Shown one piece after another: positions 1,949 to 35,834 of a stretch of 42,869 nt of DNA. Each line of letters starts with the position of its first letter. The first letter of the stretch is position 1. This DNA is from a virus. Its lineage: Duplodnaviria > Caudoviricetes. Location: positions 1-42,869 of the IMG/VR virus record IMGVR_UViG_3300028588_000040; one strand, 5' to 3'. A model generated the notes under the pieces. It was not told the origin of the DNA, did no database searches, and worked only from the letters and a program-made list of their open reading frames with translations. A program made the translations under genes and the position numbers.

Positions 1949-3079
1949 TTAGTCCTTTTTTTCGTTTTTGGCCTTTGGCGTAAATCCTAGCGCTTTTTGG
2001 TTAGCTTTTTCAGCCGCCATTTTTGAATCAATATTTTTGTCCGCTTTTGGGTCCTCTCCTTTTTTTGCCTTTTTAGTTGCCAGCGGTTTCCCCTCCGCTT
2101 TTGCTAGTTTTTTGGTTAGCTTTTCAATGTTTGCATTTGCCTCCGCCAACTCCAAACCAGATTTTTCAATTTTGTTTTTCAGCTTTTTATTTTTCGCTTG
2201 CCCTTTTTGAAAATTAGCTTTTAACTCCTCAACCTCCGACTTGATTTTCTCAACGTCTTTTGTCCCTTTCGAGCCTGTTAATGATGCAACCATATCATCC
2301 AAACGGGCATTAATGGCTTTTGCCCATTTTCCTCCGTTGCTGGCTTTTCCTTTGTTTTTAGGGTTTTTTTTGCCCCCTTTTTCTTTTTCCATTTTCTCCG
2401 CTTTAATATTAATAATTGATTTTAATTTATTTTTCGGAACTTCTGGCAAATGATATTTTTTCGCCTTTGAAAAATCCGCTGCTACTTTTGTAGGTTCAAA
2501 TATATTTGTAATAAGCCCCATTTCTTTAAACTCCTCCGCATTCTGCCACTCACCCTCACCGCTATCAATTTTCATTTGTTTACGGTAAATTTTCTCATCT
2601 TTTCCGCCGGCTTTTGAGTAAATAGATGCAATCCTATCATTGACCTTTTCCAAAAATTTAATATTTTCAGATTGTTGTTTGGATGTTCCGTAAACTCCAT
2701 TACGTGCCTCATGGATCAATCCTAAAGCATTAGCGCTCATTAACCTTTCATTCCCTGCCATTGCGATAACCGTTGCGGCGCTCGCTGTCATTCCGTAAAT
2801 CTTTGTAGTGACTTTGGCCGGATGCTCCGCTAATAAATCATGTATGCTTAAACCGTGGTTTACATCACCGCCAAAAGAATTAATATTTACAGTTATATGA
2901 TCCGCTTTTATCGCAGCAATATCTTTCAATTGTTGCTTAATCGCTTCCTTTGTGTTTGCATCTGGCTCATCCTCCCACCAATCAAAACCAATAGTACCCT
3001 CAATATCAATTACAGCCTCTTTTTTTGAAGCCATGTTAATAGCAAAATTTCCTTTTAAGTTTGATTTATTCGTTTTCAT
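1949..3079 (-). CDS. ClpP-like prohead protease fused to Lys-rich coiled-coil scaffold
   Basis: INSFGGDV, TASAATVIAMAG (Ser), IHE (His); start could be 3094, 3079 or 3034. Confidence 0.9.
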   Translation of the reverse strand: MKTNKSNLKGNFAINMASKKEAVIDIEGTIGFDWWEDEPDANTKEAIKQQLKDIAAIKADHITVNINSFGGDVNHGLSIHDLLAEHPAKVTTKIYGMTASAATVIAMAGNERLMSANALGLIHEARNGVYGTSKQQSENIKFLEKVNDRIASIYSKAGGKDEKIYRKQMKIDSGEGEWQNAEEFKEMGLITNIFEPTKVAADFSKAKKYHLPEVPKNKLKSIINIKAEKMEKEKGGKKNPKNKGKASNGGKWAKAINARLDDMVASLTGSKGTKDVEKIKSEVEELKANFQKGQAKNKKLKNKIEKSGLELAEANANIEKLTKKLAKAEGKPLATKKAKKGEDPKADKNIDSKMAAEKANQKALGFTPKAKNEKKD

Positions 3080-3130
3080 AGTACAATGATACAATGTTAA
3101 AATATAATATTTAACATAAATTTCTAAAAC

Positions 3131-3165
3131 AAAAAAAAAAACTCCAACCCATTTCTGGGCGGAGT
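3131..3165 (-). terminator. Intrinsic terminator at end of structured leader
   Basis: ACTCCGCCCA-GAAA-TGGGTTGGAGT followed by 10 T. Confidence 0.85.
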
Positions 3166-3260
3166 ATTGTAAGAGCTGGCGTAATTAAGGTAATTCCCCG
3201 CCAGATTTATAGCTGTTGTTATCCTGCCGGAGCGTTTGTTTCTTCAAATGCTATACAACG
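3131..3260 (-). ncRNA. Candidate structured leader/small RNA upstream of head operon
   Basis: ~130 nt between promoter and terminator with no ORF; several stems incl. TCC-GGCA-GGA GNRA hairpin. Confidence 0.6.
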
Positions 3261-3263
3261 GTG

Positions 3264-3271
3264 CAAATATA
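3264..3271 (-). promoter_or_regulatory. Bacteroidota housekeeping-sigma -7 element
   Basis: TATATTTG matches TAnnTTTG, intergenic. Confidence 0.7.
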
Positions 3272-3272
3272 A

Positions 3273-3548
3273 TTAAAATTTAATGCTTTTAAAATAATAT
3301 AGGCAATTTTCCACTTTGCTCTCTGAAATACAAAATTTCTCCGCTGTCAACTCCTTTGCTGTTTTTGCTTTCATTGCCGGATTTTCTCGCATCAAATCGT
3401 AATAATGTTTTTTTACAAATGCAATCTCACACCTCCTAATATCAATAATGCCGGCATCAAAACAAAACCCAACTAAATCCTCCAGAGAAAAATTACCTTC
3501 ATATTTTTCTTGAATTATTTCTATAACCTTATTTTCAATTAACCCCAT
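3273..3548 (-). CDS. Small C-terminal HTH protein (Mor-like putative regulator)
   Basis: AKELTAEKFCISESKVENCLY HTH pattern; between tape measure and protease. Confidence 0.5.
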   Translation of the reverse strand: MGLIENKVIEIIQEKYEGNFSLEDLVGFCFDAGIIDIRRCEIAFVKKHYYDLMRENPAMKAKTAKELTAEKFCISESKVENCLYYFKSIKF

Positions 3549-26114: not shown

Positions 26115-26145
26115 CAAATATAATTATTATTTTCACATAAACAAC
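26115..26145 (-). promoter_or_regulatory. Boxed promoter
   Basis: TTG-19 nt containing AAAATAATAAT-TATATTTG. Confidence 0.75.
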
Positions 26146-34328: not shown

Positions 34329-35834
34329 TTAAGGTACATAATTTATAACAGCCGCTTTATTTGTTGTTGCCCAAACTAAATCAGCATCCGGCGCACCAGC
34401 GTTAACAGTTGCTAAACTTGATTTAACCGTTATTTGAAAACCATTTTTAACTCTCCTAAAAACTTGCTCATCTGTATTTACTGTATTTCCTAAAACCGCA
34501 CACTTTGGAGCATAAAATGAATTTAATGGCATTGTGTAGGCTCCAAAAGATGAAAACAAATTAATCCCAACACTTGTAACTTCTTGCGTATTAAGAGTAG
34601 TTAATTGAGGGCAATTGAAAAAAGAATAATCGCCCAATCTATTAGCTAACGGCAAATTCACGTTTTTAACATTTATGCAATTGAATAGCATATAATTTGG
34701 AACATTCTGTAAAATTGGAAAATCAACAATATTAAAATTAACTGATGAACACGAATCAAAAGCATTTATACCAACTGTTACCAGATAATTTAAAGTTCCT
34801 AAATTTGGTAATTTAGCACAACCCCTAAACGCATAATCCCCAATAGTAGAAACGCCGCTTAATGATATATTTTCCAAATTTGGGCAATTATCAAAAGAAT
34901 ATTGCCCAATATTTTTAACTAATGGCAAATCAACCGTTACCAATGTTTGTATATTTCTAAAATTGAACGTGTTTAAATTTACTATTTTAGGCAAACTTAC
35001 ATTTACTAACCTCGTATTGTTGAAATTTGAAGTATCTATTGTTGTTACTTCTGGGAAATATATGCTATTCAACAAAGTGCAATCTGTAAATGTGTTGTAA
35101 GATATTGAGGTTACATTAGGAAATGAAACGTTTAAAAGCTTACTACAACTTCTAAACATCTGCGCTACAATAGACGTAATTAAAGGCAAACTTACAGATA
35201 CTAATGAGGTGCAACTTAAAAAAGTACTATTTCCCGTTATTGTAACTAAATTTGGATAACTCACCGAAACCAAAGAACTGCAACCAGAAAAATGACTCCC
35301 ACCCAATTTATTGATTAACGGTGTATTTACAGTTACTAATTTGGTACAGTTAGTAAAAAAATTTCCACTCCCGTAAAAATTATCTAAAACCGGAGCATTA
35401 AAACTTAACATTTCCGGATTGCCCCAAAAAGGCTGGTTTCCTACGTTTTTCAAATTAGGAAAATTGAAATTTTTAACCCTACAATTATTAAAATTTCCCT
35501 CTGCCATGCTGACAACCCCTTCCAATTTACACTCCGTAAATGAGGTGCAATTTTGAAAAGAATAATTCGTCAATGCGATACATAAATTATCCTCATCTTT
35601 AAAATATGTAATTTCCGTATTATTCCTAAAAGCTTGTTGAGCCATTGTGTAAGTGCCTGTTATTGTTGCCCTAACTTCCAAACCAGAAACCTCAAAAAAA
35701 GTAATTCTACTTGCTGCAATACCTAATTTTGTGGCCAGCAATGCCGCCGTTGTTATCGTTGCACCAACTCCGCCAATTATTGTATTTGCGCCTTTGTAAT
35801 CTCTCCCAAAAATCATTAATTTTCCCGACCTCAT
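34329..35834 (-). CDS. BspA-like leucine-rich repeat (LRR_5) protein, putative receptor-binding protein
   Basis: Many F..C..L..V.LP.V..IG repeats of about 22 aa. Confidence 0.85.
   Translation of the reverse strand: MRSGKLMIFGRDYKGANTIIGGVGATITTAALLATKLGIAASRITFFEVSGLEVRATITGTYTMAQQAFRNNTEITYFKDEDNLCIALTNYSFQNCTSFTECKLEGVVSMAEGNFNNCRVKNFNFPNLKNVGNQPFWGNPEMLSFNAPVLDNFYGSGNFFTNCTKLVTVNTPLINKLGGSHFSGCSSLVSVSYPNLVTITGNSTFLSCTSLVSVSLPLITSIVAQMFRSCSKLLNVSFPNVTSISYNTFTDCTLLNSIYFPEVTTIDTSNFNNTRLVNVSLPKIVNLNTFNFRNIQTLVTVDLPLVKNIGQYSFDNCPNLENISLSGVSTIGDYAFRGCAKLPNLGTLNYLVTVGINAFDSCSSVNFNIVDFPILQNVPNYMLFNCINVKNVNLPLANRLGDYSFFNCPQLTTLNTQEVTSVGINLFSSFGAYTMPLNSFYAPKCAVLGNTVNTDEQVFRRVKNGFQITVKSSLATVNAGAPDADLVWATTNKAAVINYVP

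What the first reader, a model, noticed from the sequence alone, without database searches (positions are those of the whole stretch)
3131..3271. Riboswitch/attenuator-like RNA leader gating the capsid operon
Seen (minus strand): TATATTTG promoter, ~130 nt with no ORF, then a U10 terminator, directly before protease-capsid-tube. Stems: P1 GUUGUA/UACAAU, P2 UAUAGC/GCUAUA, P3 UUUG/CAAA, P4 UCC-GGCA-GGA (GNRA), P5 CUGGCG..AAUUA/UAAUU..CGCCAG. The P5 5' arm UCUGGCGGGGAAUU (3205-3192) can instead pair with the terminator 5' arm AAUACUCCGCCCAGA (3168-3154; ~13 bp with one bulge and one mismatch), which also overlaps the P1 3' strand. Terminator and antiterminator are thus mutually exclusive, the known layout of riboswitch/attenuator expression platforms. 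I do not recognise the family. Inference: an RNA switch (ligand, protein or antisense) controlling virion gene expression, or a stand-alone phage sRNA.
Basis: partly seen in the sequence, partly recalled or inferred. Interest (0 to 1): 0.8.

Follow-up and report, generated by a model that had tools for sequence, protein, structure and literature searches.

The report
Phage small RNA beside capsid operon
A promoter, about 130 non-coding bases and a terminator sit in a variable slot ahead of this phage's head genes, which keep a likely promoter of their own below the terminator, so this is probably a stand-alone small RNA of no known family rather than a switch for the head genes.

Summary
The layout is real: TATATTTG box (3271-3264), 129 nt, strong terminator (3165-3131). 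The proposed antiterminator pairing exists and dominates in nascent RNA of 106-110 nt, but the terminator wins from 114 nt; its strength is only mildly unusual (3rd of 70 terminator-like hairpins). The P1+P2 cloverleaf is not favoured, and P1 abuts rather than overlaps the terminator stem. Comparative evidence argues against gating. In 17 related phage lineages the slot between the 91-aa helix-turn-helix gene and the protease is empty or holds unrelated cargo; none has this RNA. A promoter profile built from 19 relatives ranks a site below the terminator (3091) 5th of 85,628 positions, whereas 3271 belongs to this phage's own class of six TTATATTTG promoters, five of them ahead of non-structural gene clusters. 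One relative (L092) has an unrelated terminated ~135-nt cassette above an intact protease promoter, without an antiterminator. No Rfam family or homologue was found, so covariation is untested. Best reading: a likely early, moron-like small RNA acting on the host, whose terminator insulates the late head operon (0.55). Conditional read-through (lambda pR'/tR'-like or attenuator) 0.2; metabolite riboswitch 0.05.

The parts
3273..3548 (-). 91-aa all-helical protein with a C-terminal helix-turn-helix-like part, overlapping the end of the tape-measure gene; conserved just upstream of the protease in relatives; predicted late regulator (inference)
   Evidence: 38 homologues; pLDDT 83; generic HTH/sigma4 matches, Z<=7; Mu Mor Z 5.0; no Pfam/PHROG family above cut-off
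3264..3271 (-). Bacteroidetes-type -7 box TATATTTG, of the same class as five other intergenic promoters of this phage; predicted start 3259 or 3258
   Evidence: consensus and 4-5 nt spacing from PMC6847099 passages
3131..3259 (-). predicted ~125-129-nt non-coding RNA (44.5% GC without the U tract, genome 35.3%)
   Evidence: no Rfam match
3222..3248 (-). two small hairpins P3 (3248-3235) and P4 (3231-3222, GNRA loop)
   Evidence: pair probabilities 0.90 and 0.71
3176..3204 (-). P5 hairpin; its 5' arm (3205-3196) has three possible partners: 3232-3223, 3181-3176 and 3164-3154
3154..3205 (-). possible antiterminator helix 3205-3196 / 3164-3154
   Evidence: p 0.97-0.98 at 106-110 nt, 0.04 at 114 nt; ensemble about 6 kcal/mol above the terminator form at full length; controls
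3131..3165 (-). intrinsic terminator: 10-bp stem, GAAA loop, U10
3080..3130 (-). predicted family-type protease-operon promoter below the terminator: upstream A-rich element about 36 nt above the box TATCATTG (3091-3084); an 8-bp inverted repeat 3117-3110/3101-3094 lies within it
   Evidence: profile from 19 relatives ranks 3091 5th of 85,628, 2nd-32nd over five training sets; inverted repeat read
1949..3079 (-). Clp-type head maturation protease
   Evidence: PHROG 94, PF00574
852..1916 (-). likely major capsid protein
   Evidence: weak PHROG 1623 'virion structural protein', position after the protease, 114 homologues

Best explanation
The element is likely a stand-alone, early-expressed phage small RNA inserted into a variable cargo slot, and its terminator would keep the early promoter and upstream tail transcription out of the head operon, which is predicted to start from its own promoter below the terminator. 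Shown: the promoter box, terminator, slot variability and downstream promoter-like site. Inferred: host RNA polymerase starts at 3259 early in infection and releases a ~125-nt RNA; later the head genes are transcribed from 3091, probably activated by the conserved 91-aa helix-turn-helix protein; the RNA acts in trans on the host, more likely as a protein-binding decoy (multi-hairpin body, paired 5' end, open A/C-rich linker) than by pairing with phage mRNA. The antiterminator pairing would be a folding intermediate that permits at most some leak.
For: (1) [AT]TTATATTTG[CT]A occurs 6 times in the genome, all on the coding strand: 3271 and five intergenic sites ahead of non-structural gene clusters; a profile of those five ranks 3271 12th of about 85,600 positions, training sites included. 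(2) A 55-column profile of protease promoters from 19 related loci, window excluded, ranks 3091 5th and 3271 5,360th of 85,628; over five training sets, including one without the three closest relatives and one of six empty-slot relatives only, 3091 ranks 2-32 (11-167 on fewer columns) and 3271 always below 3,200. (3) Of 17 lineages (18 loci) with both the HTH gene and the protease visible, 7 have a gap of 103 nt or less, 2 a promoter plus an unterminated leader, 4 extra ORFs, 1 a terminated non-coding cassette, 3 unclassified non-coding DNA; 0 of 17 carry this RNA. (4) L092 has HTH stop, a -7-like box, ~135 nt, a GAAA-loop terminator, then a promoter plainly homologous to that of L083, L089 and L091, which lack the cassette; its terminator has no notable antiterminator (p 0.51). 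L002, the closest relative by capsid among the loci, has a third unrelated U-tract-ended non-coding stretch at the same distance from the protease start. (5) The terminator is the equilibrium state from 114 nt on. (6) No antisense seed in the phage's own mRNAs beyond chance: longest 15 nt, reached or exceeded by 371 of 494 shuffles.
Against: The antiterminator is stronger than 98.5% of shuffles and 3rd of 70 terminator-like hairpins, and the unpaired GGG in P5 offers a toehold for it, as in real expression platforms. The body of the RNA folds no better than shuffles (z -1.06), which does not favour a functional structured RNA. The box at 3091 departs from the consensus at one nearly invariant position; the training boxes were picked by eye and both profiles were built after seeing the sites. 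Regulator gene - strong promoter - short RNA - terminator - late genes is also the lambda Q/pR'/tR' layout (recalled). No homologue was found, so neither conservation nor covariation supports function; the trans-acting role and the decoy mechanism rest on inference alone.
Confidence: 0.55

Rival explanations
1. Conditional read-through gate: the strong promoter makes a short terminated RNA until a phage factor (the 91-aa protein acting like lambda Q, an RNA-binding protein, or an antisense RNA) or the trapped antiterminator lets polymerase into the head operon.
For: Antiterminator dominant at 106-110 nt, p 0.015, 3rd of 70; gene order regulator-promoter-short RNA-terminator-late genes; terminated 5'-UTR RNAs with partial read-through are documented in Pseudomonas phages (PMC10914365, passages).
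Against: Family promoter retained below the terminator here and in L092; 9 of 17 lineages keep the 91-aa gene with no terminator-bearing cassette in the slot; no Q/antiterminator Pfam family among 39 sequences scanned; L092's cassette lacks an antiterminator.
Confidence: 0.2
2. Only the promoter and terminator matter: the RNA between is the remnant of a lost cargo gene or neutral spacer, and the terminator simply ends tail/HTH transcription.
For: Body folds no better than shuffles; no homologue in any search; neighbours carry small ORFs in this slot.
Against: A consensus promoter of the phage's main class is kept intact pointing into it; GC is 9 points above the genome; two other relatives also hold ORF-less terminated stretches here.
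Confidence: 0.15
3. Metabolite-binding OFF riboswitch: ligand stabilises P1/P5, blocks the antiterminator and lets the terminator form, shutting off head genes.
For: P1, P5 and terminator are mutually compatible and all exclude the antiterminator, the logic of an OFF switch; riboswitch-like motifs do occur, rarely, in phages (PMC9004378, passages).
Against: No Rfam family even at E<10 beyond chance-level hits; no conserved aptamer found; termination is already the ligand-free equilibrium; separate downstream promoter.
Confidence: 0.05
4. Tiny coding gene or leader peptide: the 20-codon TTG frame 3247-3185 is translated, and the ribosome's position decides between antiterminator and terminator.
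For: The frame ends inside P5 and covers the antiterminator's 5' arm.
Against: TTG start 12 nt from the 5' end with C at -3; such short frames are common by chance (own judgement); no homologue; no run of regulatory codons beyond Asn-Asn.
Confidence: 0.05

Closest known systems
Phage morons (HK97 gp15 type; PMC3594210, passages read)
   Same: An addition between conserved morphogenesis genes with its own promoter and terminator and a GC content unlike its surroundings; absent from relatives.
   Different: No protein is encoded; no integrase was found in this apparently complete circular genome, so expression from a repressed prophage is not shown.
5'-UTR-derived phage ncRNAs ended by premature termination (phiKZ T102, T131 and 29 candidates; PMC10914365, passages read)
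   Same: Promoter, 70-140-nt RNA and terminator just upstream of a gene.
   Different: Those are shown by transcript sequencing; here the downstream operon is predicted to have its own promoter; no sequence comparison with them was made beyond the BLAST of GenBank phages (no real match).
Lambda pR'-6S RNA-tR' with Q antiterminator (recalled; also named in earlier finding e1-9975712)
   Same: Regulator gene directly upstream of a strong host-type promoter, short terminated RNA, late genes behind.
   Different: The 91-aa protein matches no Q family, and most relatives keep it without a terminator in the slot.
Transcriptional riboswitches and attenuators (Rfam cis-regulatory families)
   Same: Mutually exclusive antiterminator/terminator with a toehold.
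   Different: No family match, no conserved aptamer, not tied to the downstream gene across relatives.
RNA anti-CRISPRs / solitary repeat units (PMC10651486, passages and 9 supplement files searched)
   Same: Small phage ncRNA directly behind its own promoter, not next to cas genes.
   Different: No similarity to a CRISPR repeat was shown; a resemblance of the first 45 nt (GUUG...CAAC ends) to Bacteroidetes repeats is recalled only.

Membership tests
Known Rfam RNA family | Score at or above a family's gathering threshold | tested here: not met
   0 matches in the window; 6 matches at E 2.1-9.4, all far below threshold
Riboswitch | Alternative terminator/antiterminator expression platform | tested here: met
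   Predicted folding; strength only mildly above chance
Riboswitch | Conserved, covarying aptamer | tested here: inconclusive
   No homologue found
Riboswitch | Lies in the 5' leader of the regulated operon, consistently in relatives | tested here: not met
   0 of 17 lineages carry it; separate promoter predicted below the terminator
Riboswitch | Binds a small ligand | not testable with these tools
   needs in-line probing
Moron | Insertion between otherwise adjacent conserved genes | tested here: met
Moron | Own promoter and terminator | tested here: met
   by sequence only
Moron | GC content differs from surrounding genes | tested here: met
   44.5% against 30.8% (HTH gene), 37.6% (protease), 35.3% (genome); stems alone raise GC
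Moron | Expressed from a repressed prophage | not testable with these tools
   no PF00589 or PF07508 match in the genome; one relative is classed as provirus
Lambda Q/pR'/tR' late switch | Regulator gene directly upstream of promoter, short RNA and terminator | tested here: met
Lambda Q/pR'/tR' late switch | Regulator is a Q-family antiterminator | tested here: inconclusive
   no Q family by Pfam in 39 sequences; fold searches give generic HTH matches only
Lambda Q/pR'/tR' late switch | Late genes depend on that one promoter | tested here: inconclusive
   a second promoter is predicted at 3091 but not shown active
RNA anti-CRISPR (SRU) | Similarity to a host CRISPR repeat | tested here: inconclusive
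   no Rfam match; 5 motifs absent from 9 supplement files; host genome not available
C4/CI-type antisense RNA | Complementary targets in the phage's own transcripts | tested here: not met
   longest seed 15 nt, at the shuffle median

The most novel reading that the evidence does not exclude
A phage-encoded RNA switch of a new class couples capsid production to a host signal: an early promoter fires constantly and a ligand or protein decides, through toehold exchange on P5, whether polymerase enters the head operon, on top of the ancestral late promoter; the slot would be a place where Bacteroidetes phages repeatedly plug in different regulatory RNAs (L002, L083/L092 leader, L091, L092 cassette).
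Probability: 0.1. Interest if true: 0.8.

Novelty: new member of a known kind. Interest (0 to 1): 0.35.

Why it matters
If the best reading holds, it is an RNA-only accessory gene of a Bacteroidetes-type phage, and the same slot holds at least two other unrelated non-coding cassettes in relatives: a short list of candidate phage RNAs for host takeover or counter-defence in a phylum whose phage RNAs are little described. It also yields two promoter classes for this phage family and a candidate late regulator. If the switch reading holds instead, it would be a rare case of RNA-level gating of virion genes. As it stands it is a single sequence without homologue, expression data or target.

Tried and rejected
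Homologue hunt, all negative. BLAST of GenBank phages (6 chance hits) and plasmids (6). Pattern scans: viral P5 pattern 0 hits; 5' block plus linker 6 hits, none alignable; genome collection 33 hits, none titled as Bacteroidota and none alignable; linker plus terminator loop, 120 of about 130 stretches read, only generic terminators and L092 itself (the RNA model was run on 80 of the 120); P4 15-mer 50 hits, 34 distinct flanks. A covariance model built from the single sequence (two identical rows) found only terminators, best 21 bits against 180.6 for itself, in 36, 40, 80 and 8 sources and 5 whole records; such a model has little reach. Six of the 50 P4 hits (one lineage of 105-155 kb phages, L243 group) share a 19-nt block and two 8-nt blocks, but flank similarity is p 0.017 and 0.096 for the best of 34 distinct flanks, the context is a GC-rich repeat array without this promoter or terminator, and the model scores it under 9 bits: treated as chance. 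A by-eye likeness to the L091 leader did not hold (p 0.09-0.39); of 15 slot regions two reached p 0.01-0.05 (L027 reverse strand, L101) with scattered alignments: not accepted. No search of Bacteroidota genomes could be centred, because no such genome handle was obtained. Sequencing runs: one DNA holder, possibly the source; no RNA holder listed; its contig shows no variants. Fremin and Kyrpides candidate RNAs (PMC10690425; passages): motifs absent from supplement files 3-6, but files 1 and 2 and three larger files could not be read, so membership in that catalogue is open. Two-block sense match to the 234-aa gene (300-274) exceeds 255 of 255 shuffles but was found post hoc, codes for a motif conserved in relatives, and its second block is a common terminator loop: left unexplained, probably chance. 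HDV-like, twister, c-di-GMP-I, ZTP, fluoride, ykkC and tracrRNA resemblances were considered from memory only and dropped because Rfam gave no support. Foldseek gave no match at E<=0.001 for the 91-aa model; Atlas's nearest named cluster (Mor, 0.76) is a lead only. Literature searches (listings, plus passages of seven papers) turned up no description of this element or of an RNA switch before a Bacteroidetes phage head operon; the library lacks most subscription papers.

Full report
Setting. The window is a virus record with a 127-nt terminal repeat (one mismatch); a 42,773-base contig of run X1 covers the tested stretch without differences, consistent with a complete circle of about 42.7 kb. 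The long ORFs all lie on the minus strand. Tape measure, Clp-type head protease, terminase, portal, holin, amidase and a DNA methylase are recognised; no tyrosine integrase or serine recombinase. A Bacteroidota host is inferred from the TAnnTTTG promoters (consensus and 4-5 nt spacing: PMC6847099, passages) and is not shown.

Observation. The box TATATTTG (3271-3264) follows the stop of a 91-aa gene; a transcript from 3259 would run 129 nt to the end of the U tract. The terminator (stem 3165-3141, U10) forms with probability 1.0; P3, P4 and outer P5 are likely (0.90, 0.71, 0.91), while P2 is not (0.07) and P1 (0.40) competes with another 5' helix (0.37). P1 and P2 as written overlap by two bases, and P1 abuts the terminator without excluding it. 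The antiterminator is real on paper: it dominates at 106-110 nt (0.97-0.98), falls to 0.40 at 112 and 0.04 at 114, and the forced form lies about 6 kcal/mol above the free ensemble at full length. It is matched by 1.5% of 3000 shuffles and ranks 3rd among 70 terminator-like hairpins, of which 3 reach p<=0.02 and 6 p<=0.05. The part upstream of the terminator folds no better than shuffles (z -1.06). Rfam gives nothing.

Relatives. Capsid and protease searches gave related loci. The 91-aa gene directly precedes the protease region across the family (38 homologues); its model is helical with a C-terminal helix-turn-helix-like part and matches only generic HTH and sigma-4 domains. Among 17 lineages (18 loci) where both genes are visible, the gap is 103 nt or less in 7, a promoter plus unterminated leader in 2, extra ORFs in 4, a terminated non-coding cassette in 1, and unclassified non-coding DNA in 3; none holds this RNA. 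Loci in which the HTH gene was not visible were left out of this count. The slot is therefore a cargo site.

Two promoter classes. From 19 related loci I picked by eye the -7-like box ahead of the protease and built a 55-column profile without the window. It ranks window position 3091, below the terminator, 5th of 85,628 positions and 3271 5,360th; the order holds for all five training sets, including six empty-slot relatives alone (3091 rank 2-32 on all columns, 11-167 on fewer). Conversely [AT]TTATATTTG[CT]A occurs six times in the genome, all on the coding strand: at 3271 and in five intergenic gaps ahead of non-structural gene clusters, most just after terminators. So the RNA is driven by what looks like the phage's early, host-recognised promoter class, and the head operon keeps the family's own promoter. 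Both profiles are post hoc and neither promoter is shown to be active.

A parallel case. L092 has HTH stop, a -7-like box, about 135 non-coding bases and a GAAA-loop terminator, followed by a promoter clearly homologous to those of L083, L089 and L091, which lack the cassette. Its RNA does not align with ours beyond the terminator and has no notable antiterminator (p 0.51). L002 holds a third, unrelated U-tract-ended stretch a similar distance above the protease start (no Rfam match). Independent terminated non-coding cassettes thus recur in this slot.

Homologues and targets. Every search for a homologue failed (details under Tried and rejected), so covariation could not be tested. The best lead, a 19-nt block shared with one lineage of large phages, did not survive controls. 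The RNA has no antisense seed in the phage's own mRNAs beyond chance (15 nt; 371 of 494 shuffles reach that). Host mRNAs could not be tested.

How it most likely works. Host polymerase would start at 3259 early in infection and stop at the U tract, releasing a ~125-nt RNA; the terminator would at the same time shield the head operon from this strong promoter and from tail-operon read-through; head genes would be switched on later from 3091, probably by the 91-aa protein (position and fold only). The RNA's action in trans, most plausibly as a protein-binding decoy against a host function, is inference from its anatomy and timing and has no direct support. I give this 0.55. A conditional read-through gate (lambda Q/pR'/tR'-like, recalled, or RNA-based) gets 0.2, a functionless remnant with a useful terminator 0.15, a metabolite riboswitch 0.05 and a leader peptide 0.05.

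Against what is known. It works like a moron (own promoter and terminator, inserted between conserved morphogenesis genes; PMC3594210, passages) but carries no protein, and expression from a prophage is untested. It resembles in layout the terminated 5'-UTR RNAs of Pseudomonas phages (PMC10914365, passages). Riboswitches are reported as rare in phages (PMC9004378, passages); it fails the family-match and consistent-leader tests. RNA anti-CRISPRs share the promoter-plus-small-RNA layout (PMC10651486, passages and supplements), but repeat similarity was not shown. The catalogue of viral candidate RNAs (PMC10690425) could be searched only in part. Two earlier findings of this scan describe similar layouts in other genomes; they are unchecked notes and served only to add the lambda-type rival and the antisense test.

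Verdict. A real promoter-RNA-terminator unit of no known family, probably a stand-alone phage small RNA rather than the gate of the capsid operon; new member of a known kind; interest 0.35, with a 0.1 chance of a new virion-gating RNA switch worth 0.8.

Noticed in passing
window 39183, 37699, 34104, 28946, 26122 (minus strand); weaker 21407, 19595, 19565, 30879: A repeated promoter class ending in TTATATTTG with an A-rich upstream tract, mostly right after terminators; the one at 26122 is directly followed by ATG (possible leaderless mRNA).
   Followed up: partly
L083 2290-2434, L092 2292-2434, L091 2310-2452: About 140-nt non-coding 5' leaders below the protease promoter, without terminator; L083 and L092 are homologous (score above 1000 of 1000 shuffles), two-sequence consensus fold is weak (-4.5 kcal/mol, 2 double changes); no Rfam match. 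A possible true cis-leader family of this phage group.
   Followed up: partly
L092 2087-2245: Unrelated promoter-RNA-terminator cassette in the same slot.
   Followed up: partly
L002 45-235: Non-coding stretch closed by a long-range helix and U8, with a twice-repeated 11-nt motif and several GAAA-containing motifs, just above the protease promoter; no Rfam match.
   Followed up: partly
window 300-274 (minus strand): 27 nt of the 234-aa gene match RNA positions 35-48 and 102-115 in the same sense; above 255 of 255 shuffles but post hoc, and coding a conserved motif.
   Followed up: partly
window 28157-28146: The P5 loop region (RNA 66-77) is a perfect 12-nt complement of the mRNA just ahead of the DNA methylase start; chance-level by BLAST (E 0.62).
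   Followed up: partly
L292 1200-1840 (records G006-G010): A 600-nt GC-rich array of nested repeats and inverted repeats beside an AT-rich tract and a divergent 314-aa ORF in 117-155 kb phages; origin-like or a large structured RNA; no Rfam family.
   Followed up: partly
L027 1690-2060 (reverse strand): A -7 box followed by about 330 nt of non-coding, hairpin-rich leader ahead of an antisense gene cluster.
   Followed up: no
window 16425 (minus strand): Scores high on the protease-promoter profile, ahead of the genes leading to the tape measure; a possible second late promoter, but it lies inside a GTG-start ORF (16489-16199).
   Followed up: no
window 34329-35834: 501-aa BspA-type leucine-rich-repeat protein (PF13306) in the non-structural region.
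   Followed up: no
window gene order: Terminase (22994-21456) lies far from the portal (42594-41344), and the tail module precedes the head module; tape measure-HTH-protease-capsid-234-aa gene-portal order is shared with L004.
   Followed up: partly
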